Positions 12,704-31,722 of a DNA stretch of 32,000 nt are shown here, piece after piece; position 1 is the first letter of the stretch, and each line of letters begins with the position of its first letter. This DNA is from Candidatus Saccharimonadota bacterium (GTDB lineage: Bacteria > Patescibacteriota > Saccharimonadia > Saccharimonadales > UBA4665). The translations under genes and the position numbers were made by a program. The notes beneath the pieces are model-generated. The model was not told where the DNA came from. It did not search any database and worked only from the letters and a program-made list of their open reading frames with translations. The stretch spans positions 870,001 to 902,000 of the forward strand of contig CP064992.1 of assembly GCA_016699935.1 (NCBI GenBank), read 5' to 3'.

Positions 12704-12745
12704 ACACTCATTATCCCACATACTTACCATTCGTCTATCAAAATT

Positions 12746-12767
12746 AAACTGTACGGCCGTACGGTTT
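12746..12767. repeat. CGGCCG-centred palindrome, copy 1 (aaactgtacggccgtacggttt)
   Basis: It sits within the larger near-perfect palindrome 12741-12772, 38 nt upstream of the Ldh_2 start. Confidence 0.8.
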
Positions 12768-12830
12768 AATTTGCCCATACCACTATCGAATCGGAAAACA
12801 AGTTTTTTGAATCCATCAGATATAAATAAT

Positions 12831-12852
12831 AAACTGTACGGCCGGACGATTT
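12831..12852. repeat. CGGCCG-centred palindrome, copy 2 (aaactgtacggccggacgattt, degenerate)
   Basis: Same left arm as copies 1 and 3. It lies just downstream of the apbE stop. Confidence 0.65.
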
Positions 12853-12871
12853 AAAAATTAGGATATGAATA

Positions 12872-13840
12872 TTAGTTAGAATGGGATAGTTGAGATGAGT
12901 TGAGGAGGATGGTTTTAAGGCCGTACTTTTGGGTTAGGGCTTCGTCGAGCTCTGGGGCGATGAGGAGGATGGTGGCGCAGGCATCAGCGATGAGGGCGGA
13001 TTTAGCGCGGACATAGGTGCTATTGATGTCGGCCGAGGTGGCGGGCGCACTCGTGCGTGGATCGATGATATGCTGCTGGTTTTTGCCCTGGTGTTGCCAG
13101 GTGCGCTTGCGGTTGGAACTCACGGCCAGTGCCCCGTTCTGGATGCGGGTCGTGCCAATAGACGTGCATGAGTCTAGCGGATGCTCAAGAGCGAACTCGA
13201 GTGGCATTGGTGCATTGACTAGAATATCTCCGCCGCCGTTTATGATGAAGTGTTGCTTGCCACTATCTTTCAGAAGGTCGCCGACGCTGTCTATAAGCCA
13301 GCCTTTGCCAAAGCCACCAAAGTCAAGACTAATTCCACCCGGGATACGTATTTCCACAGGGGTAAGCTTCACCTCACCCCAAAATGAAGCAGATATTCTG
13401 CCCTCGCCTGTCTTGCCGTAGCCACGACGCACAAGCTCGCCGCCAACCGATATATTGAACACGCCGCCAGTTATATCTTGGAGGTTACCTGCGAACTCTA
13501 GCATTGCCAGCATCTCTACGGGTGGGGCCATGAGTCGCTTATGCAGGTTGAGCTGGCCGAGCAGCGAGTCATCCGAGAATCGAGTATACTGGCGCTCAAA
13601 CACTCTGATGGTATTCACGATGGAGGCTTTGATTTCGTCTGTGAGCGCATCGTCGAGTGTTTCTATCCACCAGTGCGTACCGAGTGCATCCAGCTCGAAT
13701 ATACTTGAACCGTTTAAGCAGGCGGGTGCATTTTGGGATTTCTTCAGACCCTTCCCCTTCGTGTTCGACTGCCAAAAATAAACTGTACGGCCGTACAATT
13801 TAAAATGACAGAGTTTTAGGCTACTATCGTCGAGATTCAA
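12872..13840 (-). CDS. apbE: FAD:protein FMN transferase (ApbE family); start uncertain
   Basis: ..ALGTHWWIE.., ..DFGGFGKGWLIDSVGDLL.., ..IINGGGDI.. are present. The track start 13840 is a TTG and the reading frame runs through palindrome copy 3. ATG 13731 would fit after a 1-nt correction in a C run. Confidence 0.8.
   Translation of the reverse strand: MNLDDSSLKLCHFKLYGRTVYFWQSNTKGKGLKKSQNAPACLNGSSIFELDALGTHWWIETLDDALTDEIKASIVNTIRVFERQYTRFSDDSLLGQLNLHKRLMAPPVEMLAMLEFAGNLQDITGGVFNISVGGELVRRGYGKTGEGRISASFWGEVKLTPVEIRIPGGISLDFGGFGKGWLIDSVGDLLKDSGKQHFIINGGGDILVNAPMPLEFALEHPLDSCTSIGTTRIQNGALAVSSNRKRTWQHQGKNQQHIIDPRTSAPATSADINSTYVRAKSALIADACATILLIAPELDEALTQKYGLKTILLNSSQLSHSN
13780..13801. repeat. 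CGGCCG-centred palindrome, copy 3 (aaactgtacggccgtacaattt)
   Basis: On the minus strand it is followed by atttttgg, a terminator-like context downstream of the FMN-binding protein gene. Confidence 0.8.
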
Positions 13841-13890
13841 AATCTATACTCCATACCCTATACTCCATACTTAATACTTAATAGTCCTCT

Positions 13891-14472: not shown

Positions 14473-15759
14473 ATGAAGTTTGTGAGTTTGGGAACCCAGA
14501 AGACGTAGTCTCCTTCAAGAAGCGCTCTCCCGCGGTATTCCGGCCGATGGCAGTTTATACTACCCTATCGAGATCCCGCCCCTTACCAATCAACAGATTG
14601 CATCTTTGCCGACGCTTGATAACAAAGCAATTGATCATTTGATTCTGAAGGCATGGCTTGGCGATGAAATACCCACCGATGACCTGGCTCGTATTGTCGA
14701 TAACGCAGCGACATTTGAGACGCCCTGTGTGCCCGTCGTCGATAAGCATGTTTAGAGTTATTTCACGGTCCGACGATGGCATTCAAAGATGTGGCAGCCC
14801 GCTATTTGGCGGCACTTATGGGGTATTTCAATGCTAAAACCGGTAAAACTTCAACGGTGTTGGTTGCAACCAGTGGCGACACTGGTGGCGCGATTGCCCA
14901 TGGGTTTGGTGATGTAGCCGGTACCAAGGTTGTTGTCTTGTACCCCAAGGGCCGCGTCAGCCAATTGCAGCAAGAACAATTGCGACGGGTGGCGAACAAT
15001 GTCCATACACTTGAGGTTGATGGTGACTTTGATGCTTGCCAAGCGCTGGTAAAGCAAGCTTTGGCCGATAGGGCTTGCGGAGCCAGGTTGGTCTAACTTC
15101 GGCCAATTCAATTACGGTCGGGCGGTTATTGCCCCAGACGTTGTACTACGCGCGGGCATATGCTCAGCTCGGTGGTCGGAATGATTTGCGCTTTGTCGTA
15201 CCGAGCGGAAACCTTGGGAACATTACTGGCGGAGTCCTTGCGCAGCAGATGGGTATACCGATAGCTTCATTCCTGGCTGCCAATAATGCGAATAATGCCA
15301 TAGAACAGGTATGCGCACGAGGGTAGATTTACGCCATTTGAGGCCGTGCCGACCATGTCAAATGCCATGGATATCGGAGCGCCAAACAACCTGCCTCGTC
15401 TGCAGCGGATTTTCAGGAGTGATCTAGATGCCTTCAGGGCAGACATCAGGACCGCACAGGTTACAGATGAACAAACCGTTGCCACTATCAAGAAAGTCTA
15501 CGAAGACACTGGCTACTTGCTTGACCCGCACACGGCTGTGGCCTGGTGCGCCAGCGAGCAAAATCCAGACGGCAATGTACACGATGTCATTGTATCAACT
15601 GCCGCACCTGAGAAATTTGCCGAAGAAATTCAACGCGACACAGGCATCGTAGTTGATAACACTAGCGAACCAGCCAAGCTCCGTCAAACTCCCGAGCGCT
15701 TCACTTCAATTTCCAATTCCCTCGCTGAACTACGTACATTCATAATGCATAACTCATAA
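14473..15759 (+). pseudogene. thrC: Threonine synthase, with at least 5 frameshifts as assembled
   Basis: Fragments in three frames read VSFKEALSRGIPADGSLYYP, ELFHGPTMAFKDVAARYLA (PLP lysine motif), VATSGDTGGA, LTSANSITVGRLLPQ, VPSGNLGN and SNAMDIGAPNN. Confidence 0.85.
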
Positions 15760-15776
15760 TTCAGCATTCACCGTAT

Positions 15777-17168: not shown

Positions 17169-17865
17169 CTATTGGACTTCCAGTAGTGCTTTATAGATGT
17201 TGTAGGGTTGCGGGCCGACGACTTTTTGGCCACCGATGATAATTGTGGGAGTACCCTGCACAGAGTCGCCTGCGGCTTTGTCTACGGCTGTATTGTAGGC
17301 GTCAGCATGAGTGCGGCCACCCGCGCAGGTCGTAAATGAAGTTGCGTCCAGGCCAGCTTCGCCGGCGAGTTGACCGAGCTTTCAGGACTAAAGAGCTTGC
17401 GCACGGTAGCGTCGGTGTCACCCTTGCTGAGGAAGTTTTCCCACATGTAGCTAAACATTTTGTCATGATAAGCTGTAAATTTGCCCTGCTCTGCCGCACA
17501 GAATGATGCATACAGTGCCAGACCAGAATCTTCACCAAAAGTGGGAATGGCCGGTAGATGATTTTTGCTTTGCCGGTGTCGACCCAGTCACGGCGGATAT
17601 CTTTACCAGCCTTTTCGTGTAGTTCGTTGCACTTTGGGCACTTGTAGTCGCCGTACTCGACGATAGTAATAGGCGCACTGGCCTTACCAATTACAAGTTC
17701 AGTCGGTGTAGCATTTGGTTTGGCCTCATAAACATTTGACGTTAAAGATGGTGTGTTTGTTTCATTTTGCTTAATAGGTATAGTGGAGTCTTTGCCGCTA
17801 AAAACCAGAAAAACCCCTATGACAGCAAGTATTACCAAAAACATCACAATAATCATTTTTTTCAC
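17169..17865 (-). pseudogene. DsbA-family thioredoxin-fold protein with an N-terminal anchor, with at least 3 frameshifts as assembled
   Basis: MKKMIIVMFLVILAVIGVFLVF anchor, EYGDYKCPKCNELH (CxxC) motif, and a C-terminus in other frames reading ..LAGEAGLDATSF..VQGTPTIIIGGQKVVGPQPYNIYKALLEVQ*. Confidence 0.8.
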
Positions 17866-18030: not shown

Positions 18031-18054
18031 AGCTGTCACACCTTACACTAAAAT

Positions 18055-18076
18055 AGATTGTGCGGCCGCACAGTCT
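18055..18076. repeat. CGGCCG-centred palindrome, copy 4 (agattgtgcggccgcacagtct)
   Basis: Same geometry as copies 1-3, with symmetric (compensatory) A>G / T>C changes in the arms. Confidence 0.7.
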
Positions 18077-18086
18077 AAAATCAACC

Positions 18087-18228: not shown

Positions 18229-19996
18229 TTAAGGGGTATCTTGGGAGAGGATGAGAACGGCGTAAGCAGGAGATTCAGGGTGGCGATGCGAAATTCATCC
18301 GTCGTGATTTCGTGTATGTCGGCTTCGTGGAAATCGGGGCTGTAGCCTTTCAGGTGCTGTTGAAACGGACTTGCCAGGTGCCGGGGAGTGGCAACTGCAT
18401 TTGGTAGTTTTCGTGGGCTTGATCACCGAAATTGACTATGATGAAGACATCATCACCTGCTCTTCCCCTGTCCCAGCGATGGTACCCGAGCACGCCATTG
18501 TTGTCGTCTTGGTGAAAAACAGCTGTACTTTGCCCGAGCAGCCCTGCAGTATTACCATGTCGGTTGAGGCGAAGATCTATCAAGTGACGATGTGCCAGTA
18601 CGAAACCATCGTATTTTTCTGCTTTTACCCACTCGAGCTCCTGCCAATCGTTAAAGCTCCCTTCTTGCAAAAATTCTTGACCCTGCAACAGCATGGGTAT
18701 GCCCGGTGAAGTAAGCATTACAGCGTCGGCTAGCAGTGATTGTTCGCGGGCATGTATATCGGCCGCATCGCCCGAGCTAGCCGCTTCGTTCAGTCGAACG
18801 GAACCGTTGGCGGCGGTGTCGTGCGAATCGCTAAAGATTATTTTTTCGTAAGCGTTGCCGTTGTAACGGCGCTCTAGTTCGTAGCGGACTCCCGCCAGTG
18901 TACGCCCACCGCGTAGACCTAGGCCGTCACGCAGAGCGTGCGGAAAACCTAGTTCCCACTGGGCATCAAAGGCGCAGCCTTGCTCAGTGCGCGGTTTGGT
19001 GAGGTAGGCGCTATTAGCACAGTCTTCGGCAATCATGATAGCCGATGGTTTGATTTTGTGCGCCAGCTCCACGATATCTTGCAGTAGGTACCAAGCATGG
19101 GATATGTCGTGAGCGGGATCGTTATCGTGACCTTCGGTGTTGCGCATGTATGTGGTGCTATCGACTCTCAAGCCATCAAGTCGATATTCACTAAGCCACA
19201 TCGTGACATTGTCTAGTATAAATTGACGTACTTCAGGCCGGCCATAGTCGGGTCGTCCACCCCAGGGTGTGTCGCCACGGACGTCATTGTAAAAATATAT
19301 GCCACCCCGGCCGTTTTCACTCCATCCGTCAAATTGCCAGAGGTCGGTTTCACCCGAGAAGTGGTTGTAGACGACATCGAGGATGACGGCAATGCCTTTT
19401 TTGTGGCATTCGCGAACGAACTTTAGTAGCCCATGCCGTCCGCCGTAGGCGTTTTCGACCGAGAACAAGTGGTTTGGCGCATAGCCCCAGCCGTACCCGT
19501 GTGCCATACTCGTCACCGGCATCAGCTCTATGACGTTGACGCCGAGCTCTTTTAGGTAGTCTAGTTTTTCCAGCGCATCATCGAAGCTGCCTATGGTCGC
19601 TGCATCGGGTCTGTTGAATGTACCGACATGGAGTTCGTAAATGATTTGCTCTTCTGGTGGAGCAGGCGAAAAGCTATCACCTTCCCAGTCAAAATTGGGG
19701 TCAATGATGACCGAGGCGCCATTATCTGAAGTCGTCAATTGCTGAGCGCGCGGATCGTTGCGCGTCAAGACCTGGCCGTCAGCCGTGGTAATCAGGTAAA
19801 CATAGTTTTGTCCGGACTCGATATTTTTAAGTCGAAGTGACCAGTAGCCGTCGGACTCGCTTGCCATGGCAAGTTCTTTGCCTGCGGCGACAGTTCCAGC
19901 TAACGCAACAGAGCGAGCAAATGGCGCCCACACCCGAAATTCTGTGTATTCCCCATGCCCAGTCACCCCCAAATTCTTTTTAAGCTGATGCGTCAT
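18229..19996 (-). CDS. GH13 alpha-amylase-family enzyme with an N-terminal CBM48 (branching-enzyme / TreZ-like). It has an in-frame TGA at 18350-18352 plus one later frameshift.
   Basis: FRVWAP...YWSL..Y.Y is CBM48-like. The catalytic regions are VIYELHVGTF, GWGYAP, AVILDVVYNH, LDGLRVD, MIAEDC and FSDSHD. After the TGA the same frame continues KGYSPDFHEADIHEI.. and ends ..PAYAVLILSQDTP* at 18229. Confidence 0.85.
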
Positions 19997-20015
19997 TGCT
20001 CTCTAGTATGAAAGC

Positions 20016-20331
20016 ATGAGCGGTTTTAGGCAACCCCAGATTAATGCGGGCTTTCGCGCCCGCACAGCGACCAGGACCTTTTGCTGCCAAAAGGTCCTGG
20101 ACCTAAAACCAGGCCAAAGACTTCACCTCTTGGTCAGCTCTTGTCAGTTCTATAACCAACACGACAACTCGTTCGCCCTGGATTGCCACCGGCAATCCAG
20201 GCCTCTCTCAGACAAGTCGTGCCGCCTGCCGGAAGTTGTAGAGCCTGACAACATCTGAGCCAGGAGTCTCCGCATGGCCATCATTAGTTAATGTCGCTTA
20301 CACGACAAATATTTGCGGCCTTAAGGCCGCA
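20016..20331 (+). ncRNA. Element A: hairpin-rich structured element paralogous to 30130-30505 (candidate ncRNA; strand tentative)
   Basis: Hairpins: gcgggc/gcccgc (20046-20063), ccaggacctttt/aaaaggtcctgg (20071-20100) and cctggattgcc/ggcaatccagg. A conserved 3' block spans 20232-20331 and ends in gcggccttaaggccgc. A TAGTAT box lies at 20004-20009, and a strong terminator follows at 20342-20375. Confidence 0.4.
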
Positions 20332-20341
20332 TGGAATAATT

Positions 20342-20375
20342 AAAACTATTCTCGGATTTATTTCGAGAATAGTTT
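20342..20375. terminator. Strong bidirectional intrinsic terminator (13-bp perfect stem), downstream of purH and of element A
   Basis: aaaactattctcg-gatttatt-cgagaatagtttt. Two further hairpins (20401-20422 and 20428-20455) sit between it and the purH stop. Confidence 0.7.
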
Positions 20376-20459
20376 TATAAGTTCCCAGGAAAGAGCAGCC
20401 GGAGCTGCGGCTATGCAGCTCCGCGCGATGAGAGAACCTATCTCGGTTCTCTCATTATC

Positions 20460-22092
20460 CTAGTGGCCGAAGAAGCCGCGGCCTAGTTTGTCGGGGAGCA
20501 TGGTGGTAGAGACGTTACGATCGGCGAGGGTTTTCACGACTTCTGGGTCTTTGACGGAGCCAGATGATGTCAGGATGGTGGTTATGCCGGCGTCGGCCAG
20601 TACTAGTGGGCCGTCGGGGAATGGGAAGAAACTGTCGCTGTAGGCTGTGGCACCCTTTAGGTCGTGGTCACGGCTGGTTGCGCGGGTGACGGCAAGTTTG
20701 GCTGCCCCTACCCTGTCTTGCTGGCCAACCCCATTGCCGAGCATGCGGCCGTCTTTGACTATGCAAATGGTGTTACTATTGCTGGTGCTACCGACTGCCC
20801 AGGCTTGTACCATGTCGCGTTGTTGCTGTTCAGTGACGGTGCCATTTTGTTCTATGTAGTCGGCCTTCAGGTCGACAACAAAGGTGTAATTTGGCTGTAC
20901 TAGCATACCACCGCGAACATTGCGGTAGATTGGCGCGGTTTCGAGGGATTCTTTTGTAAGCGTTGCCAGGGCTGGGTTGGTCACGATGCGCAGTTTTGCC
21001 CGACTCAATATTTCCATAGCTTCGGGTGTCACTTCACTGCCGACTACGCCGTCCAACAGGCGGTTTTGACCGTCTGGCATATGGTACTGCATGAGAGCCG
21101 TCGCAACACTGGCATCGATGACGCCATTTAGCATGACGACACCGCCGAAGATGGCTATTTCGTCGCCCTCTAGCATTTTCTGGACTGCTTCTACAGCTGT
21201 GTCAGCCACCCCTGCCCCGCAAGCATTGCCGTGCTTGACACCTACGGCAATGGCTGGGACTTTGCCGAAATTCTCCTCAAACCCAGCGGCGATGTGCGTG
21301 ACGGTTTGTAGCAAACGGTGCATGTCAGTTTCGTTGATATAGCTCAGCTCCCACCCTTTTGGTGGGTAAACTGGTCAAGCCCAAGTGGGTCGGTGGCCAC
21401 GCGGTTATCGGCGTATAGCCCAGCTGGGGTTTGCCAAGGGTTCTCGCCGTATTTGGTGGGTGCAACACGGCGGCCAATCCAGCCAGCGACTTCATCACCA
21501 CCATGGTAGCGGGCAGAAATCATAATGTAGCGGGCGCATTCGTACTCGGCGATGGCACAAAGTTCGTCTCGGAAAGCTTTTTCGTCGGGTTTACCATCTG
21601 TTAACCAGGTCTGTAGCACTTCACTTCGTTGGTCAGCGCGAGATAGCACAATGCGCCGGGCTTTTGCTCCGGCTCGCAGCATGGTCGGACCACCGATATC
21701 GGTTTTTCGATGACACTTTGCAAGGTGGCAGTGCCGCTGGCAATCTCTTCCTCTAGTGGGTACATATCGACTGCCACGAGGTCGATGAATGGAATGCCGC
21801 GCTCTTTAAGCTCGGCTAAATCTTCTGGCTTCTCGGCATCGGCCAGCAAGCCACTGTGAATTTCTCTCGATAGCGTCACGACGCGGTGCCCAAGTATTGC
21901 CTCCCCGCCAACCAGCTCTGCGACATCCGTAACCGGCACGCCAGCCTCGGCAACGACTTTCGCCGTGCCACCCGACGATATGATATTCCAGCCCAGCTCA
22001 TGCAAGCCCTTGGCAAACTCGGCTATCCCGGTTTTGTCGTACACGGAAAGCAGTGCGTTCTGGTTTGTTTTTAGTAAGTGGTCGATAGACAT
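20460..22092 (-). CDS. purH: Bifunctional AICAR transformylase / IMP cyclohydrolase (PurH), with two frameshifts (T5 run at 21703-21707; about 21345-21360)
   Basis: N-terminal MGS-like domain reads ALLSVYDKTGIAEFAKGL..ISSGGTAK..DLVAVDMYPL..(TDIGGPTMLRAGAKA after correction). The C-terminal AICARFT domain reads ..VGVKHGNACGAGV...AYSDSFFPFPDG...RGFFGH. SD aaaggag lies upstream of ATG 22092. Confidence 0.9.
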
Positions 22093-22894: not shown

Positions 22895-25800
22895 TTATGA
22901 ATTATTAATCTTTACCGCCCACTCATATGCATTCATGAACATATGCATCCAAGGTGACGCTACGCCCCAATCGGCGGGGTGCCAGGAAAGCTGGCGGGTT
23001 AGGAAGGCGCGTTCGGGGTGAGGCATAATGATGGTGGCGCGGCCATCTGGTGTGGTTAGGGCTGTGATGCCATGTGGCGAGCCGTTGGGGTTGGCTGGAT
23101 AGGCTTCGGTGGGGTTGTGCTGGCTGTCGACGTATTGCGCAGCGACGAGGCCGTTTTTCACCGCATTTGCCCTTTCTGCATCTGTAGTAAACATCGCATA
23201 ACCTTCACCGTGAGCGGTCGGAATCGGCAGGACTGAACCCTCCATGCCAGCGAAAAATATGGACGGCGTTTTGTTTAGCCGGACTTGCGGTAGTCGTGCC
23301 TCGAACCGCTCACTACGGTTCTGGAGGAAGCGCGGCCAGGCTTCTGCACCAGGGATAAGTTCTTTGAGCTCAGAGAGCATTTGGCAGCCGTTGCAAACAC
23401 CGAGGCTAAAGGTATCGGGACGTTCGAAGAATGATTTGAACTGGGCGCGAAGTTTTTTGTCAAAAAGTATGGTCTTGGCCCAGCCACCGCCAGCGCCCAG
23501 AACATCGCCGTAGCTGAAGCCACCACAAGCGACCAATCCGACAAAGTTATCGAGATTAGTATTGCCGGCAATTATGTCATTTAGGTGGACATCGACAGCT
23601 GTGAAACCGGCGCGGTCAAAGGCGGCGGCCATTTCTATTTGGCCGTTAACGCCTTGTTCGCGGAGGATGGCGACCCGTGGACGATCCTTTTTCGATTTTC
23701 GAAGAGGGGCTCGCCCCTCTTGAGGTGAACTCATCGCTTCGCTCGAGTCCAGCCTCCACTCCCCCGCTCGCTGCTCGCTCGCGCAGCCGCTACGCAGCGG
23801 TTCGGCCGCTGTCGCGGCCTCAGAGACACTGGCGCTCGAAGCCTGAGCGTCTTGTGTCCGTGCTGTATCTTCGCTCGCGCCGCCGCTACGCAGCGGTTCG
23901 GCCGCTGTCGCGGCCTCATTTGTTTGATTTCTTAATGCAGCTACTCTTATCTCATAACTCTTATCTCTTAACTCTAGCAATGGGTTTAGCCCCGGATCGT
24001 CGTCATTACGTATGGCGGTATATTCTTCTTCGGCGCAGGCGGGATTATCGCGCAATTTTTGTATGCGGTAACTTGTCTCGGCCCACCACTGTTCCAGCTG
24101 CGCCCGAGTATTTTTGTAGACCACTTTCTGGCCGTCTCGGAATATAACATCCTGTGTTTTTGATGGTACTCCTACGACATACGCATTTTCACCAAACACC
24201 TGGGATACGGTTTTTGCATCTGATGATTTCACCTGGATGACGACACCGAGCTCTTCATTGAAAAGCTTTGCTATGGTCTCCTGCCTTGTCATTCCTGCCG
24301 AAGTGGAGGAATTTTCTTTTAATTTTTCAGAAGATCTTTCGATTACTCCTTCGGCTTTGCTCAAGATGACAGTACTAGGAAGTGTAGTGAGGTCTATGTC
24401 GAGGCCGCAGCGGCTGGCAAAGGCCATTTCGCACAGGGTTGTGAAAAGACCACCATCGGAACGGTCGTGGTACGCCAGAAGGTAGTTTTTAGTTTTTCGT
24501 TTGTAGAGGGCGGCCGCAAAGTTTTTCAAAATGGCTGGGTCGGCGTCGGGAGTTTCGCCGCCAAGTTCGTTGTAGACCTGCGCAAATGCGGAGCCTCCCA
24601 GTCTTGTGTGCCCACCGGAAAGATCAACGAAAAGCAATACGGAATCCTCTGTAGTATCGAGCTGCGGAGTTAACGTTTTCGTTACGTCGCTTACGGGGCT
24701 AAAGCCGGTGATAATGAGGCTGAGGGGTGAGGTGACTGATTTGGCTTTGTCGCCGTCTTGCCAGGTGGAACGCATACTTAGGGAATCTTTGCCGACCGGT
24801 ATGGTGATGCCGAGGGCGGGACAGAACTCTTCGCCTACAGAGTAGACAGTGTCGTAAAGTGCCTGATCTTCTTCACCGTGACCAGCGGCTGCCATCCAGT
24901 TGGCTGATAGTTTTATGTCACTGAGCTTTTCGATGTCTGCTGCTAGCATATTGGTGATGGTTTCGGCGATAGCCATTCGACCCGAAGCGGGTGCGTTGGT
25001 GACAGCGAGTGGGGTACGTTCTCCCATAGCCATAGCCTCGCCGTGATCGCTGTCGAAGCCGACGGCAGAGACGGCGACATCACTGACTGGCACTTGCCAC
25101 GGACCGACCATTTGGTCTCGGGCGATTAGCCCGGTGACGGTTCTATCGCCAATGGTGATGAGAAATTTCTTACTGCCCACGGCTGGTATATGCAAAACGC
25201 GCCTGGCGGCTTCTTCGAGGTCGATATTTTCCAGCCAGCTATCCTTTGACGTCATTCTGAGCGAAGTCGAAGAATCTACCAGTTCGTTGTTTTGTGAAGA
25301 TCTTTCGACTGCGCCTTCGGCTTCGCTCAAGATGACAGTGGTGGCGATAGGGCTGGGCGCGCGGGTGAATTCGCGGGTCATTTTGGGCGGTTTGCCGAAG
25401 AGCGTGCTCATAGGCAAATCGACAGTGTTATTTTCAAGTAAACTATCGTGGACAACGAGCCGATCTTCGTCCACCGCCGTGCCGATGATACTGTAAGGGC
25501 AGCGCTCCCGCTCGCACAATGCAGTGAACTCGGCGACATCTTTTCGTGGAGACCTATGACATAGCGCTCTTGGGCTTCGTTGCACCAAATTTCCATCGGT
25601 GACATGCCAAGGTCGGCATTGTTGATTTCGCGCAGTTCTACGTGGGCACCAAGTCCGGCATCGTGCACCAGCTCTGGTACGGCGTTGCAGTAGCCACCGG
25701 CACCGATATCGTGAATCATGACGATGGGATTTTCTGCACTGGCCCAACAGGCGTCAATAACTTCTTGGGCTCGGCGTTCCATCTCGCCATTGCCACGTTG

Positions 25801-27174
25801 GACAGATGCGAAGTCTAGGTCGGCGCTACTGGAGCCAGTTTGCATGCTACTTGCAGCTCCACCACCCAGACCGATTAGCATAGCTGGACCACCCAAGATG
25901 ATGATTTTATCGCCAGGTTGCAATTTGCCCTTCTGGACATGCTGATCACGGATGTTACCTAGGCCACCGGCAATCATGATAGGCTTGTGATAGCCACGGA
26001 CTTCGTGGCCATCACTTTGCTCGTACGTTCTGAAGTAGCCTGCGAGGTTGGGACGGCCGAATTCATTGGCAAAGGCTGCTCCTCCCAATGGTGCTTCGAG
26101 CATTATCCCCAAAGGCGAGGTAATGCGGTCGGGTTTGCCGTAAGGCTTTTCCCACGGTTGTGTTGCATCGGGAAGTTGCAGGTTTGAAACGCTAAAACCG
26201 GCTAGCCCCATTTTGGGCTTAGCACCGCGGCCAGTGGCGCCTTCGTCACGGATCTCGCCACCCGTGCCAGTGGCGGCTCCAGGAAACGGTGCAATTGCCG
26301 TCGGGTGATTGTGCGTCTCGACCTTGATAACAGTGTGGATTGGTTCCTGTGTGTAGCTGTACTCGTGTGAATCTGGGTTTGGGAAGAACCGCCCAGCAGT
26401 CGGGCCAGCCAGCACAGCGGCGTTATCCGAATAAGCGCTTAGTACATTCTCGCCACCCCATTCAAAGGTGTTACGGATCATTTTGAATAAACTTTTGGGT
26501 TTCTGGCCGTCTATGACCCAGTCGGCATGGAAAATTTTGTGGCGGCAATGCTCGCTGTTTACCTGGCCAAACATCATCAGTTCAGCGTCGCTGGGGTTAC
26601 GACCAAGCTCGGTGTAGGCGGCAACCAGATAATCGATTTCGTCGGCGCTGAGCGCCAGGCCCTGCTCGGTATTGGCCTTTTCGAGAGCTTCTTTGCCACC
26701 TCTCAGTACGTCGACAATGATGAGCGGTTTTGGTTGCGGGTCAGCGAAGAGAGCTTCGGCTGCCTCGAGCGAGTCGAGCACGGCTTCTGTCATGCGGTCG
26801 TGGAGGAGCGGCGCCACCATGTCACGCTTAGCAGAGTCTATGTAGTAAACAATACCGCGCTCAATCCGATTTACCTGGTTTAGTCCGGCGTTATGAGCGA
26901 TGTCGGTCGCCTTGCTCGACCACGGTGAAATGGTACCCGGACGTGGTACAACCAAATACATTACCCCTGACCTCTTACCAGTGTACGGTGTATCGTAAGT
27001 CAGTAATTTGGTAAGTTCAGCTTCATCATGGGCAGAAAGCTTTGATGCTACATCGACAAAGTGGACAAACTCTGCGCTCACGTTGCGCACATTTTTGTCG
27101 ACAGCCGCTAGGAGTTTGAGCAAACTATTTGCTTTAGAATCGGATAACGCGTTTATTCCTTTATAAACCTGCAC
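22895..27174 (-). CDS. purL: Large single-chain FGAM synthase (lgPurL: N-domain, synthetase and glutaminase). It has one frameshift at the T4 run 25541-25544 and carries three repeat-derived in-frame insertions.
   Basis: [104 protein letters not shown] and MPHPER are present. The GTG start at 27174 overlaps the purM stop. Confidence 0.9.
23775..23918. repeat. Two 48-nt direct repeats (23775-23822 and 23871-23918; 1 mismatch) separated by 48 nt, inside the purL linker
   Basis: tcgctcgcgc[a/c]gccgctacgcagcggttcggccgctgtcgcggcctca. Each repeat contains the small hairpins ccgct/agcgg and ggccgc/gcggcc. It translates as [12 protein letters not shown][G/C]ASE, twice. Confidence 0.85.
23941..23977. 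repeat. Single CTCTTA/TAAGAG-family arm inside the purL coding sequence
   Basis: ctactcttatctcataactcttatctcttaactctag. It translates (minus strand) as [13 protein letters not shown]. Confidence 0.75.
24288..24370. repeat. Double-hairpin palindromic element inserted in-frame in purL (copy 2)
   Basis: gtcattcctgccgaagtggaggaatt...gatctttcgattactccttcggctttgctcaagatgac. It translates as [28 protein letters not shown]. Confidence 0.8.
25251..25337. repeat. Double-hairpin palindromic element inserted in-frame in purL (copy 1; 87 nt = 29 codons)
   Basis: gtcattctgagcgaagtcgaagaatc...gatctttcgactgcgccttcggcttcgctcaagatgaca. It translates as [29 protein letters not shown]. Confidence 0.85.
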
Positions 27175-28789: not shown

Positions 28790-28806
28790 ACAGCCTCCTT
28801 TCCTTT

Positions 28807-28897
28807 TAGAGTTATGAGATAAGAGTTATGAGTTAAGAGCCCAAGCCAGTAAGGTACTATACTTTTCTTATCTCTTATCTCATATCTCTTAACTCTA
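28807..28897. repeat. TAAGAG-family inverted-repeat element in the purK-purE intergenic spacer
   Basis: The left arm is tagagttatgagataagagttatgagttaagag. The right arm is cttatctcttatctcatatctcttaactcta. The spacer is 27 nt. Confidence 0.8.
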
Positions 28898-28904
28898 GTT
28901 CCCC

Positions 28905-30049
28905 TCATATGCTCAGTAGCCCCCGTGCTTTCACGGCGTTTTCACGTACTGTTTGCAAGTCCAGCCCGGTGACTGTGATATGCCCCATTTTGCGGTCGAC
29001 TTTGGTCGGGCTTTTGCCGTAAAGGTGCAGGCTTGCACCTGGTATGGCCAATACATCAGAGGTTCCTTTCACCTGGGTTTCGCCGTCGCGTTCGCCGAGG
29101 ACGTTAATCATGACAGCGGCTGGCACTAGTAGCGATGTGTCGCCTAGTGGCAGTCCGGCAATGGCGCGAATGTGCTGCTCGAACTGGCCTACGCGGCAGG
29201 CTTCGGTGGTATAGTGGCCGCTATTGTGGACGCGCGGAGCTATTTCGTTGACTAAAACGTCGCCGTCTTTGGTGAGAAACATTTCTATACCGAATGTGCC
29301 GGCACCACTGAGAAATTCGGCGACTTGCCGAGCGATGGCCTCAGCTTTTTGCGTGACCTCGGCCGAAACTGGGGCTGGCACGAGCACCTCGGTGCAAATA
29401 TTGCGTTCGTGGATAGTCTGAACGATGGGGTACAGGGCTACATTACCGTTCATGTCGCGGGCGACCATAACGGCTAATTCGCGCTCGAAGTCGATCAAAC
29501 CTTCGGCGTAGAGTGCTTTGCCCTCAAACTTACCAAGCGCTACGTCCAGCTCGGCCTGGGAGTGGACGACCATGTTGCCCCGACCATCGTAGGCGCCGTG
29601 CCGAGTTTTGATTATCATGGCACCGCCAAATGTGGCAAGCGCATCCCGGGCGGAGTCTGCCCCTGTTATTTCGGCAAATGGGGCTAAAGGCACGCCTTTT
29701 TCTAGCAAAAATTGTTTCTGGGCGTATTTGTCCTGAATAAGACGAATGGTGGACGGTGAAGGATTTATGACTGCCCCGCTCTGTTCGATCTTGGCCAAGG
29801 CATCGGCGTCAAGATGTTCGATTTCGACTGTGATGTAATCTGCTCTAGCGGACAACTCCTAAGTGCTTTTTCGTCGTATAAATTGGCGACAATTTGGCGG
29901 GCCCCAACTTGCTCGGCCGGACAATGTTCGCCTGGGTCGACAACTACAACATCAAAGCCGAGAGGTTTGGCGGCGAGAGTTAGCATGCGACCTAGCTGGC
30001 CTCCGCCGACAATACCAATGGTAGGTTTTTTTGCCGCTCCCTGTTCCAT
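28905..30049 (-). CDS. purK: N5-CAIR synthase (PurK, ATP-grasp), with one frameshift near 29858
   Basis: IGIVGGGQLGRML, YITVEIEHL, ATP-grasp core and ..NEIAPRVHNSGH.. are present. ORFs 29765..30049 and 28905..29855 join. Confidence 0.9.
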
Positions 30050-30062: not shown

Positions 30063-30129
30063 CAGGAAATATGGGGGTCGCACAATGGGCGTAAAAATGA
30101 AAGTGGTATGACAAATAGTATATAGTGTA

Positions 30130-30505
30130 TTGTCCGACGGATGGCAGTTCTCGGACTGCCAAGCCGACCAACTTTGGGCAGCCAAAGTTGGACAAAGCTG
30201 CCGGGGAGAATGCAAACGACCGGCTTACTTGAAATTTCTTTTGACCTGTTTGGTTCCTGCGAAACTCCCCGCCTTTGGCGGGGTCAAACATTCTCGTCAC
30301 GCATGCAGTCAAAAGAAATTTCAAATCAGTCGTTATGCATCCCCGGGTTTCAGCGACCCAACCCCGATTGCTTCGAAGTGAGCACTCACTGCAGACCGAT
30401 AATTACGAAGTTGTAGAAGCCGACAACATTCTGGCCGGGAGCCTCCGCATGGCCCCCACTAGTTACATCGCTAACGCGATAATAATTAGCGGCCTTACGG
30501 CCGCA
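30130..30505 (+). ncRNA. Element B: hairpin-rich structured element paralogous to 20016-20331 (candidate ncRNA; strand tentative)
   Basis: Hairpins: ggcagt/actgcc (30143-30160), ccaactttgg/ccaaagttgg (30168-30191), the long-range pair ttgaaatttcttttgac/gtcaaaagaaatttcaa (about 30228-30324) enclosing ccccgcc/ggcgggg, and a conserved 3' block at 30407-30505 ending in gcggccttacggccgc. TAGTAT/TATAGT boxes lie at 30116-30126. Confidence 0.4.
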
Positions 30506-30538
30506 CTCTTATCTCATATCTCTTAACTCTTAACTCTA
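30505..30538. repeat. Single CTCTTA-family arm directly after element B
   Basis: actcttatctcatatctcttaactcttaactcta. Confidence 0.7.
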
Positions 30539-30655
30539 TCTTGACTCTTCTCTTGACTCTTACCCCCATTTGGCTCGTTGCAAGTTGATTGTTTCTTGAT
30601 CTTGCACGTTGATCTTTCTTGATTCGTGCCTCATGACTCTTGCCAGGTTTTTCTG

Positions 30656-30667: not shown

Positions 30668-31623
30668 ATGAAACATATTCTTGAGGGGACGGATTTCAAG
30701 CTGCCGGGTTGCCAGGCGGTTTTACCATGGCAAAGTGCGCGATGTCTATGACTTTGGCGACCGGCTTATGCTGGTGGCCAGTGACCGCTATAGCGCATTT
30801 GACCGGATATTGGCAGGGGTGCCCAACAAAGGTGCGCTACTAACGGCAACGAGCCAGTGGTGGTTCGAGCAGACCGCTTCGATAGTGCCAAATCACATCA
30901 TTTCTTACCCTGACCCAAATGTGGCATATTGTAAAAATACGAAGTTATCCCGCTAGAAATGGTGGTGCGAGGCTATATAACGGAGTTACCAACACCTCTC
31001 TGTGGCACACCTATTCGAACGGACAGCGCGATTACGGCACCTTTCAGCTTCCTGACGGGCTAAAAAAGAATGATAAACTACCCGAGCCAGTGCTGACCCC
31101 AACTACCAAGTTTGAGATACATGACCGCAATCTTACTCCGGCCGAAGCACTTACAGAAGGGCTTTTGAAGGATGAAGTTTGGCAACGTGTTAGTGACTAT
31201 GCCCTGCAACTTTTTACTTTTGGCCAGAAGGTGTCCGAAGCCAAAGGGTTGCTGCTGGTCGACACTAAGTACGAGTTTGGTCTGACGCCACAAGGTGAGA
31301 TTATTCTAATAGATGAAATACACACGCAAGATTCATCGCGCTATTGGCTGACAGAAAGCTACCAACAGCGGATTGACGAGGGTGTCGAACCAGACAATTA
31401 CGACAAAGAATATCTGCGGTTATGGTTCAAGGAGCGTTTCGACCCTTATGCAGATACGCCTGCACCAGAAGTACCAGCCGAGATCATCGAAGAGTTGGAG
31501 CGCCGATACCGGTTTGTTTACGAAAGTTTGGCTGGCCAGGCGTTTGAAGAACCCGATACAACGGACATTGTGAAGCGGATTGAAGCAAATGTACTGCGTA
31601 CACTGGGACAACATGAGAGTTAA
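30668..31623 (+). CDS. purC: SAICAR synthetase (long form), with two frameshifts (about 30710 and about 30950)
   Basis: YHGKVRDVYDFGDRLMLVASDRYSAFD, LEMVVRGYITG (after correction), LLLVDTKYEFG and IDEIHTQDSSRYW are present. The stop codon lies inside a TAAGAG repeat arm. Confidence 0.9.
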
Positions 31624-31705
31624 GAGTTATGAGATAAGAGATAAGATTTGTGCTTCGCACAGCGTATTCCCTATCTTACTCCTTAACTCTTATCTCTTAA
31701 CTCTA
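31615..31705. repeat. TAAGAG-family inverted-repeat element overlapping the purC stop codon
   Basis: The left arm is gagagttaagagttatgagataagagataag. The central hairpin is tgtgc-ttc-gcaca. The right arm is cttactccttaactcttatctcttaactcta. Confidence 0.8.
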
Positions 31706-31722
31706 ACCGCTAAGGAGCATGC

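What the first reader, a model, noticed from the sequence alone, without database searches (positions are those of the whole stretch)
30130..30505. Two paralogous 320-380 nt hairpin-rich elements with compensatory stem changes (candidate undescribed structured RNA)
Elements A (20016-20331) and B (30130-30505) are in the same orientation and share one architecture.
- Both start with a 6-bp hairpin carrying a similar 6-nt loop: gcgggc-tttcgc-gcccgc in A and ggcagt-tctcgg-actgcc in B.
- A conserved single-stranded joiner follows: aCAGCGACCA in A and aAGCCGACCA in B.
- Next is a 10-12-bp hairpin with a conserved loop (GCTGCC / GCAGCC) followed by GGAC.
- A long-range stem then encloses a GC hairpin: cctggattgcc/ggcaatccagg in A and ccccgcc/ggcgggg in B.
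- The last roughly 100 nt form a 3' block that is about 75-80% identical over its first ~70 nt. It contains gaagttgtagaRSCYgacaac and gccRggagYctccgcatggc. Two more hairpins follow: tgtcg/cgaca in A versus atcgc/gcgat in B, and the conserved gcggccttaMggccgc.

The stems differ in sequence but keep their pairing, while loops and joiners stay conserved. That pattern points to selection on structure rather than on a protein. Each copy is preceded by a TAGTAT/TATAGT box, and A is followed by a strong terminator. I do not recognise either copy as any known RNA family.
Basis: seen in the sequence. Interest (0 to 1): 0.72.

Follow-up and report, generated by a model that had tools for sequence, protein, structure and literature searches.

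The report
Modular hairpin RNA elements in Saccharibacteria
Both stretches are real copies of an undescribed, lineage-restricted family of hairpin-built non-coding elements in a Saccharibacteria (TM7) genome; their folds are kept by compensatory mutations, but they behave like shuffled accessory modules, not two copies of one housekeeping RNA gene.

Summary

I found homologs only in Saccharibacteria: five further lineages with full "type-A" copies, plus fragments.

**Structure.** On six type-A copies, a 77-pair structure is 92% paired, against 84% in shuffles and 31-42% with slid partners. 23 pairs change on both sides; 0 of 500 shuffles reach this. It consists of a 13-bp hairpin, a ~170-nt rod with a near-invariant base and a variable tip, and two 3' hairpins.

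**Constraint.** Flanking synonymous sites are saturated (41-48% identity). The orthologous element keeps 78%.

**What it is not.** It matches nothing in Rfam, phages or plasmids, and has no protein relatives or codon periodicity.

- The central ~200 nt of A and B are unrelated rods.
- B is a chimera: a type-B rod plus an orphan 3' arm of a type-A rod. Its ortholog lacks that arm.
- The TAGTAT box before A belongs to the divergent amylase promoter.
- Presence is patchy among close relatives, and a 5' module is swapped between strains.

**Verdict.** This is a new family of modular structured intergenic elements, probably RNA from the + strand. Its function is unknown.

The parts
20046..20063 (+). 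A: H1 hairpin (GCGGGC-UUUCGC-GCCCGC)
   Evidence: Read. The homologous hairpin keeps pairing through changes: L014 GCAGGC/GCCUGC and L173 GUGGGC/GCUCAC, which has a G.U only on the + strand.
20064..20070 (+). A: joiner ACAGCGA (shared motif GCGAC / GCCGAC)
   Evidence: Conserved between type-A and type-B copies.
20071..20100 (+). A: P1, 13-bp hairpin with a tetraloop
   Evidence: Helix 1: 7 of 13 pairs change on both sides. L024 carries a wholly different but perfectly paired stem.
20101..20111 (+). A: conserved single-stranded linker ACCUAAAACCA
   Evidence: AAACCAGGCC is invariant in six copies.
20112..20279 (+). A: type-A rod. Contains P2 GGCC:GGCC, P3 CUCUUGGUCAG:CUGAgCCAGGAG, P4 UUGUCAGUUCUAUAAC:GUUGUAGAGCCUGACAA, P5, an 11x14 internal loop and the P6 GC hairpin at 20177-20201.
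   Evidence: RNAalifold and pair counts. Covariance model R1 scores 192 bits. The base of the rod is nearly invariant; the tip varies with compensatory changes and is replaced in L014.
20232..20279 (+).
   Evidence: 38 of 51 columns are invariant in six full copies. It pairs with 20112-20156.
20292..20307 (+). A: P7 hairpin (UGUCG/CGACA)
   Evidence: Helix 7: 2 pairs with double changes, 81% paired.
20315..20330 (+). A: P8, a palindromic GC hairpin GCGGCC-UUAA-GGCCGC that looks like a terminator in both directions
   Evidence: It is flagged as terminator-like on the minus strand.
20004..20033 (-). Context, not part of the element: amylase promoter. -35 TTGCCT is at 20033-20028 and -10 CATACT at 20010-20005.
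   Evidence: Conserved in L169, L170, L172, L173, L179, L180 and L181 whether or not an element is present. The promoter assignment is an inference.
20344..20377 (.). Context: bidirectional hairpin between A and purH
   Evidence: Present with compensatory changes in L169, which has no type-A element.
30097..30126 (+). B: sigma-70-like promoter match ATGAAA-18-TATAGT directly upstream
   Evidence: This is a consensus match only, and it overlaps a TATACT on the minus strand facing purK.
30143..30160 (+). B: H1 hairpin (GGCAGU-UCUCGG-ACUGCC)
   Evidence: The same hairpin sits 5' of type-A copies in L175 and in L024, as GGUAGU with a U.G only on the + strand. The L165 version is GCAGGU-UCCCGC-ACCUGC.
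30168..30191 (+). B: P1, 10-bp hairpin
   Evidence: The L165 version CUCAUUUUGU/ACAAAAUGAG is fully compensated.
30201..30346 (+). B: type-B rod, unrelated in sequence to the type-A rod. It has a long helix, a 21x24 internal loop and the CCCCGCC/GGCGGGG hairpin at 30267-30283.
   Evidence: Fold. The ortholog L165 7060-7390 keeps the rod base and has a compensated distal helix: UUCUUUUGAC:GUCAAAAGAA becomes AUUCUCUCAG:CUGAGAGAAU. A 5' fragment lies in L169.
30407..30454 (+). B: orphan 3' arm of a type-A rod. No 5' arm is present in B.
   Evidence: Matches the type-A profile only from model position 175 onward. It agrees with 34 of 38 family-invariant positions. It is absent from the L165 ortholog.
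30467..30480 (+). B: P7 hairpin (AUCGC/GCGAU)
   Evidence: It is homologous to P7 of type-A copies.
30489..30504 (+). B: P8 hairpin GCGGCC-UUAC-GGCCGC
   Evidence: Terminator-like on both strands.
30505..30563 (+). Heptamer tandem repeats (CTCTTAT / CTCTTAA / CTCTTGA) following B
   Evidence: TRF period 7. Heptamer arrays of different sequence follow the copies in L017, L024, L002, L173 and L165.

Best explanation
A and B belong to a Saccharibacteria-restricted family of modular, hairpin-built intergenic elements. They are most likely expressed as highly structured + strand RNAs of about 290-370 nt.

Each unit has a shared 5' module (H1 hairpin, GCGAC-type joiner, P1 hairpin), a central rod of about 150-170 nt, and a shared 3' tail (P7 and the GC hairpin P8, which probably ends the transcript). 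The rod comes in at least two unrelated types. Each type has a sequence-invariant imperfect duplex at its base and a freely co-varying tip.

A is a complete type-A unit. B is a type-B unit that carries the orphan 3' arm of a type-A rod, most simply through recombination with a type-A allele.

The elements are accessory. They are kept under constraint where present, but they are gained, lost, truncated and re-assorted by recombination at intergenic hot spots.

Proposed working (inferred, not shown): the RNA folds into a chain of stable hairpins. The conserved duplex at the rod base, with its invariant U.G and bulge, is the functional site, serving as a binding or processing platform for a protein. 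P8 and the rod also act as transcript-end or insulating structures between neighbouring transcription units.

In behaviour they are closest to ERIC-, BOX- or RPE-type palindromic intergenic elements, not to a housekeeping RNA.
For: **Shown: structure**
- On 6 type-A copies, 92.1% of cells pair, against 83.8% shuffled and 31-42% slid.
- 23 of 77 pairs change on both sides, against 10.0 in shuffles (0 of 500 reach the observed value). This includes the long-range P3 helix.

**Shown: constraint**
- Four-fold sites of the flanking amylase and purH genes are 41-48% identical between the window and L173.
- The element at the same site is 78% identical, with an almost invariant rod base.

**Shown: not coding**
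- A translated multi-frame bait finds nothing among 5.8 billion proteins.
- There is no codon periodicity: 14/16/20 and 18/19/26 variable columns by codon position.

**Shown: not a known RNA or mobile-element end**
- No Rfam match.
- No match in phages or plasmids.

**Shown: modular and mosaic**
- A and B share only the 5' module and the 3' ~100 nt.
- The B ortholog lacks the block.
- L173 and L175 encode the identical amylase protein but carry different 5' modules on an otherwise identical rod.
- Half-rods occur in B and L025, and a type-B 5' fragment occurs in L169.

**Shown: accessory**
- The purH|amylase site holds type-A (window, L173 lineage), a type-B fragment (L169), unrelated heptamer-repeat hairpins (L170/171, L180/181) or a small ORF (L172, L179).
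- The purC|purK spacer is only 60 nt in L177.
- Other copies sit next to unrelated genes.

**+ strand favoured**
- An invariant U.G in P3, and U.G alternating with U-A in P4.
- G.U pairs in the H1 variants of L173 and L024, and in P1 of L014.
- A promoter-like site directly 5' of B.
- On the minus strand, P8 plus a T-rich tail would stop transcription before the rod.

**Repeat-rich background**
- The same genomes carry several other hairpin and heptamer repeat families, some of them inside purL.
Against: - Copy number looks low. The 19-base pattern hit one contig in each of three MAGs. Only 2 JGI metagenome contigs matched. The model found no extra copy in 259 kb of related loci. Classical repeat families have tens to hundreds of copies.
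- No target-site duplication and no transposase were found next to any copy.
- Conservation beyond synonymous saturation, together with a low copy number, is what a host-beneficial RNA gene would also show.
- Transcription, transcript ends and strand are not demonstrated.
- Only six full type-A sequences exist, and L017, L024 and L173 are close to each other. Only two type-B copies exist.
- The proposed protein partner is pure inference.
Confidence: 0.5

Rival explanations
1. A dedicated, host-beneficial, trans-acting structured non-coding RNA gene. Type-A is the functional gene, present once per genome. B, L025 and the L169 fragment are relics or a second RNA. It would work as a protein-binding or sequestering RNA through the invariant duplex at the rod base.
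For: - Strong covariation and constraint.
- One pattern hit per MAG.
- Own promoter-like site for B and terminator-like P8.
- Conserved unpaired linkers and a small three-way junction.
- The fragments differ from the family at 4-5 of the 38 positions that define family invariance in the six full copies. This comparison is circular, so it is only a weak signal.
Against: - Absent from the same site in relatives whose amylase is 83-89% identical. The pattern scan also returned no hit in the complete genomes CP064993 and CP065016; whether these are in the scanned GTDB species-representative set was not verified.
- Gene contexts differ in every lineage.
- The distal half, including the internal loop, is replaced in L014.
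- The 5' module is swapped between strains.
- Fragments are common in a very small sample.
Confidence: 0.3
2. A DNA-level mobile element: a non-autonomous MITE or an IS200/IS605-type palindrome-associated element. The conserved rod arms or terminal hairpins would be recognised by a transposase acting in trans, and 'covariation' would only reflect the need for matching ends or hairpin-templated repair.
For: - The rod has conserved ~45-nt inverted arms and a variable interior.
- Two rod types sit in one scaffold, with fragments and chimeras, patchy presence and intergenic hot spots.
- A possible ACCA/ACCA 4-bp flank occurs in L017.
- An IS200-like Y1 transposase is present in relative L179.
Against: - Low copy number.
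- The flanks of the rod (P1, P7, P8) travel with it, so the rod alone is not the mobile unit.
- The ACCA repeat is not kept in the other copies.
- The ends of the L179 IS200 are unrelated.
- An invariant U.G, a bulge and a nested long-range helix with an asymmetric junction fit a folded single strand better than paired transposon ends.
- No similarity to anything in plasmids or phages.
Confidence: 0.12
3. A cis-acting leader or a type I toxin mRNA. The conserved AGGAG-N7-AUG inside the 3' block would be a ribosome-binding site and start codon sequestered in the rod. It would control a short peptide, or attenuate a downstream gene such as purC after B.
For: - AGGAG and AUG are invariant and both lie inside helices P3 and P2.
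- The short ORFs in B and L024, read by eye, are hydrophobic (25 and 23 aa).
- A weak Thr_leader-like Rfam match was found: 26 bits against a cut-off of 55.
Against: - The ORF is 5 aa in A and L173, 10 aa in L014, and frame-shifted in L017. There is no conserved peptide (read).
- No codon periodicity.
- Downstream genes differ or are convergent.
- purC has its own promoter-like site after B.
- The purC|purK spacer is 60 nt in L177.
Confidence: 0.04

Closest known systems
ERIC / IRU elements (enterobacterial repetitive intergenic consensus). Comparison from my own knowledge of the literature, not tested here.
   Same: - Imperfect palindromes in intergenic regions.
- Strongly conserved in sequence across species.
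- Hairpin kept by compensatory substitutions.
- Present or absent at orthologous sites.
- Variants with internal insertions or deletions.
   Different: - ERIC is about 127 bp and a single hairpin, present in tens to hundreds of copies in Enterobacteria and Vibrio.
- Here the units are 285-375 nt, with several hairpins and two rod types.
- Copy number is apparently low, the sequence is unrelated, and the host is a candidate phyla radiation (CPR) bacterium.
BOX elements of Streptococcus pneumoniae, BIMEs of E. coli, and Rickettsia palindromic elements (own knowledge)
   Same: - Mosaic units assembled from a few hairpin-forming modules, with module content varying between copies.
- The host genomes also carry hairpin repeats inserted in frame in genes, as seen here in purL.
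   Different: - Those families are high-copy and short.
- No sequence relation.
- The long rod with a nested long-range helix and an invariant base has no counterpart there.
Orphan large structured bacterial RNAs (OLE, ROOL, GOLLD, HEARO, raiA)
   Same: - More than 200 nt and multi-helix.
- Supported by covariation.
- Lineage-restricted, with unknown or recently emerging function.
   Different: - No Rfam match to any of them.
- Much narrower distribution (8 copies found).
- Simpler rod-plus-hairpins fold.
- Mosaic and unstable loci.
6S RNA
   Same: - A rod of about 170 nt closed by its own ends, with a large internal loop.
- Two versions in one genome, as in Bacillus.
   Different: - No match to Rfam (which holds the 6S family) even at E<=10 on 400-nt pieces.
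- The conservation pattern is inverted: the base is invariant while the loop region is variable and is replaced in L014.
- Absent from close relatives at the same site.
hok-type type I toxin mRNAs
   Same: - RNA of 300-400 nt with a ribosome-binding-like motif buried in a long-range helix.
- Patchy, decaying chromosomal copies.
   Different: - No conserved toxin ORF.
- No codon periodicity.
- No evidence for an antisense RNA.

Membership tests
Any Rfam 15 family | Score at or above the family's gathering threshold | tested here: not met
   0 matches in the whole window. At E<=10 there is nothing in A or B within an 11.5-kb stretch. On 400-nt pieces the only matches were a Thr_leader match at 26 of 55 bits and four weaker (14.8-16.8 bits) miRNA/sRNA hairpin matches over the terminator hairpin after A; B had none.
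6S RNA | Conserved central bubble flanked by helices; match to the 6S model | tested here: not met
   No 6S match. The internal loop and terminal hairpin are replaced by a different hairpin in L014, while the closing helices are the conserved part.
6S RNA and other housekeeping RNAs | Present in essentially all members of a lineage, usually at a stable locus | tested here: not met
   Absent from the purH|amylase site in L169, L170, L171, L172, L179, L180 and L181. Whole genomes could not be searched.
MITE (non-autonomous DNA transposon) | Terminal inverted repeats | tested here: inconclusive
   The rod arms are ~45-nt imperfect inverted repeats. However, conserved hairpins P1, P7 and P8 lie outside them in every copy.
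MITE | Target-site duplication flanking the element | tested here: not met
   ACCA...ACCA occurs only in L017. The other copies have ATCA, ACTA, ACTC or ACTT.
MITE, ERIC, BOX and REP-type repeats | Many copies per genome | tested here: inconclusive
   Two copies in the 32-kb window. One pattern hit per MAG. Two JGI contigs. No further copy in 259 kb of related loci. Complete genomes were not searchable.
ERIC-like palindromic intergenic element | Intergenic imperfect palindrome whose hairpin is kept by compensatory change, with presence or absence at orthologous sites | tested here: met
   for compensation. for patchiness.
IS200/IS605-derived palindrome-associated element | Subterminal hairpins recognised by a Y1 transposase encoded in the genome; insertion next to a fixed tetranucleotide | tested here: inconclusive
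   A Y1 transposase gene is seen only in relative L179, and its flanking hairpins are unrelated. No gene among the 20 window ORFs scanned against Pfam is a transposase. The target motif was not tested.
Type I toxin-antitoxin mRNA | Conserved small hydrophobic ORF | tested here: not met
   The ORF from the conserved AUG is 5 to more than 30 aa with frame changes. No periodicity. No protein relatives.
Protein-coding gene | Homologous proteins; excess variation at third codon positions | tested here: not met
   Compare amylase identity by codon position: 0.87 / 0.91 / 0.47.
Structured non-coding RNA (generic) | Transcript with defined ends | not testable with these tools
   Only promoter-like and terminator-like matches are available.

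The most novel reading that the evidence does not exclude
Type-A, and perhaps type-B, is a new class of about 280-nt structured RNA specific to a clade of epibiotic, reduced-genome Saccharibacteria. Its invariant, pseudo-symmetric duplex (UUGU...ACAA on both arms, an invariant U.G, and a buried AGGAG/AUG) would be the docking site for a dedicated protein. The RNA would be exchanged between strains as a cassette, making it a mobile RNA-protein system rather than a passive repeat.
Probability: 0.15. Interest if true: 0.75.

Novelty: new member of a known kind. Interest (0 to 1): 0.45.

Why it matters
I found no report of such an element in four full-text literature searches, and the window has no Rfam match.

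This family gives a clean, covariation-supported example of a structured element that is under constraint yet shuffled between strains. It could become a marker for recombination and strain dynamics in Saccharibacteria from wastewater and soil.

If the conserved duplex has a protein partner, it would open a new RNA-protein system in organisms that are hard to culture.

If the family is only repeat-like, it still documents, together with the heptamer arrays and the in-frame hairpin inserts in purL, that these small genomes are rich in hairpin-forming repeats.

Tried and rejected
**Known RNA family.** Four Rfam searches gave nothing usable.

**tRNA or tmRNA, and island integration into an RNA gene.** ARAGORN finds nothing. 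I considered the 10-kb pur operon as an island flanked by a complete type-A element and a 3' fragment of one. I rejected this because purK...purH-amylase synteny holds in relatives without the elements and the B ortholog lacks the fragment.

**Protein-coding.** A 678-aa concatenated bait of all open frames from A, B, L002, L017, L024 and L165 gave no hit. There is no codon periodicity.

**Viral origin.** Two scans of viral contigs gave only chance matches; none scored with the profile. Phages and plasmids gave no match.

**Common neighbouring gene.** None. Neighbours are an HD-domain protein, malic enzyme, a NYN-domain protein, a metallo-beta-lactamase-fold protein, a Vut_1 transporter, an amidohydrolase, and the pur and amylase genes.

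**6S-like reading.** Rejected on the conservation pattern.

**PurR-box or LexA-box resemblance.** GCAAACG and TTGT-N8-ACAA were noted from memory only. They were not tested and not pursued.

**A sigma-70 promoter 5' of type-A copies.** None is shared.

**Extending the window.** Failed because the window's own proteins are not on record, probably owing to frameshifts.

**Literature.** Four searches found no description of such an element in Saccharibacteria or other CPR bacteria.

Full report
**1. Setting**

The window comes from a Candidatus Saccharibacteria genome. The amylase-family and PurM proteins are 100% identical to proteins on a 1,226,308-bp NCBI contig named Candidatus Saccharibacteria bacterium.

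A and B bracket a purine-biosynthesis cluster on the minus strand:
- A (20046-20330) lies between the start of an alpha-amylase-family gene (ATG at 19996, minus strand) and the stop of purH (20460, minus strand).
- B (30143-30504) lies between the start of the purK-purE-purM-purL operon (30049, minus strand) and purC (30681, plus strand).

Several genes are broken into pieces: purH, purL, purK, purC and a DsbA-like gene. The amylase is 548 aa against 586-590 aa in relatives. The assembly therefore probably carries indel errors.

**2. The observation**

Every hairpin and motif in the finding is present at the stated places.

- The shared 3' part is 80% identical over 101 nt, E 6e-18.
- The block motifs occur nowhere else in the window, with about 0 expected.
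- Both elements fold much better than shuffled sequence on either strand.
- The central ~200 nt of A and B do not align.

**3. Homologs**

An exact-pattern scan of 185,579 species genomes gave 23 loci. Only three are real, one contig each from two Saccharibacteria MAGs (L002, L014) and one MAG labelled only 'bacterium' (L017). A JGI metagenome scan gave one full copy (L024) and one half copy (L025).

Fetching the contigs of close relatives through their amylase and PurM proteins gave the same intergenic sites in eleven further loci. Viral contigs, phages and plasmids hold nothing related. A covariance model of the rod found only the eight known copies in 259 kb of related DNA.

**4. Anatomy of type-A**

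On six full copies (A, L173, L017, L024, L002, L014), RNAalifold gives the following:
- P1: a 13-bp hairpin.
- A conserved linker, AAAACCA.
- A rod closed by P2 (GGCC:GGCC), continuing through P3 (CUCUUGGUCAG : CUGAgCCAGGAG) and P4 (16 pairs).
- A small side hairpin in a conserved CGCCUGNCGG loop.
- P5, an 11x14 internal loop and the GC hairpin P6.
- Then P7 and the palindromic GC hairpin P8.

Support is strong:
- 92.1% of cells pair, against 83.8% in shuffles and 31-42% with slid partners.
- 23 of 77 pairs change on both sides, against 10.0 in shuffles. No shuffle out of 500 reaches any of the five measures.
- The long-range P3 helix co-varies: UCAG:CUGA, UGAAG:CUUCA and UGAAC:GUUCA.

The base of the rod (P2-P4) is almost invariant on both arms. 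The tip varies, and in L014 it is replaced by a different hairpin.

**5. Type-B and the nature of B**

B has the same 5' module and 3' tail as type-A, but a different rod (30201-30346).

Its ortholog at the same purC|purK site in L165 (PurM 87% identical) keeps the rod base and has a fully compensated distal helix.

That ortholog lacks the 48-nt block. In B the block has no partner arm. B is therefore a chimera of a type-B unit and the 3' arm of a type-A rod. A second orphan 3' arm is in L025, and a type-B 5' fragment sits at the purH|amylase site of L169.

**6. Constraint versus instability**

Between the window and L173, four-fold degenerate sites of the flanking genes are saturated (41-48% identity). 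The element at the same site is 78% identical. Some form of selection, or later transfer, is therefore needed.

The same site in relatives whose amylase is 83-89% identical holds several different things:
- a type-B fragment (L169);
- unrelated long hairpins built from heptamer repeats (L170/171, L180/181);
- a small ORF (L172, L179).

L177 has only 60 nt between purC and purK.

L173 and L175 encode the identical amylase protein yet differ by a clean swap of the 5' module. L175 carries the B-like GGCAGUUCUCGGACUGCC hairpin and a different P1, on an otherwise near-identical rod.

The other copies lie next to unrelated genes.

**7. Strand and expression**

Wobble pairs favour the + strand:
- an invariant U.G in P3;
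- U.G alternating with U-A in P4;
- G.U in the H1 variants of L173 and L024, and in P1 of L014.

Against this, there are three single A.C cells.

A sigma-70-like match (ATGAAA-18-TATAGT) lies directly 5' of B. No shared promoter was found 5' of type-A copies.

The TAGTAT before A is conserved in relatives without the element. It fits the -10 (CATACT) of the amylase gene on the other strand, with a TTGCCT -35 placed 17 nt away. This promoter assignment is an inference.

On the minus strand, P8 is followed by a T-rich tail and would stop transcripts before the rod. Transcription itself is untested.

**8. Not coding**

- A bait made of all open frames found nothing among 5.8 billion proteins.
- Variable columns are spread evenly over codon positions.
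- The conserved AGGAG-N7-AUG opens ORFs of only 5 to about 35 aa, with frame changes.

**9. Interpretation**

The data fit a family of modular, structured, probably transcribed elements. They are under constraint where present, but they are accessory and are re-assorted by recombination.

They behave most like ERIC-, BOX- or RPE-type palindromic intergenic elements. They differ in being longer, multi-hairpin and apparently low-copy.

A dedicated trans-acting RNA gene remains a serious rival. Low copy number, constraint and the conserved linkers all fit it.

A purely DNA-level transposon end, a leader, or a toxin mRNA are less likely.

Function is not established. The invariant imperfect duplex at the rod base is the best candidate for the functional site.

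**10. Verdict**

- The finding is real and is not explained by any known family.
- Interest is moderate. This is a new, narrowly distributed family of a familiar general kind, with an unresolved and testable question about what binds the conserved duplex.

Noticed in passing
window 13844-13883, 15738-15763, 23943-23976, 28805-28897, 30505-30563, 31616-31719; L170 9790-9930; L180 1860-2040; L173 9470-9530: Tandem arrays of 7-nt units are common in intergenic DNA. The unit sequence differs from place to place (CTCTTAA, ATACTCC, AATTCCA, ACCAAGC and others). Arrays often occur as inverted pairs that form long hairpins after genes. A literature search returned a paper on TAACTGA heptamer repeats in Beggiatoaceae (PMC4679880). 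I did not read it.
   Followed up: partly
window 23700-23920, 24286-24373, 25251-25339; L165 14377-14443; L169 6729-6800; L014 802-867: Short hairpin-forming repeats lie inside purL, of the GTCATYCTGAGCG...GAAGGATC kind and a GC-rich kind. In L165 and L169 purL is called as one intact gene of 1385 and 1336 aa, against 1281 aa in L177. The same repeat also sits next to the type-A copy in L014. This looks like in-frame repeat insertions in a housekeeping enzyme.
   Followed up: partly
window 30507-30537 and 31616-31646: The heptamer array just after B is 94% complementary to the array just after the purC stop, so the two bracket purC (pair I4).
   Followed up: no
window 12730-12769, 12815-12854, 13764-13803, 18039-18078: Four copies of a 40-nt palindromic, terminator-like repeat (TAAACTGTACGGCCGTACGGTTTAA) (family D2).
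   Followed up: no
window 20460-22092, 22895-27174, 28905-30049, 30681-31623, 17302-17865, 18350-19996: purH, purL, purK, purC, a DsbA-like gene and the C-terminus of the amylase are split or truncated relative to intact orthologs. This probably reflects indel errors of a long-read assembly rather than pseudogenes. Two exact-protein look-ups for window ORFs failed, although two other window proteins are on record at 100% identity.
   Followed up: partly
L172 9369-9701; L179 9427-9825: At the purH|amylase spacer, two relatives carry small ORFs (110 and 132 aa) with no Pfam match in place of any hairpin element. The spacer is a hot spot of variable content.
   Followed up: partly
L179 19294-19722: An IS200-like Y1 transposase gene is present in a close relative. 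Its flanking hairpins are unrelated to the elements studied.
   Followed up: partly
window 20262-20276 and 30437-30451: An invariant AGGAG followed 7 nt later by AUG lies inside the conserved block and is buried in helices P3 and P2. The ORFs that follow are 5 aa in A and 25 aa in B and are not conserved.
   Followed up: yes
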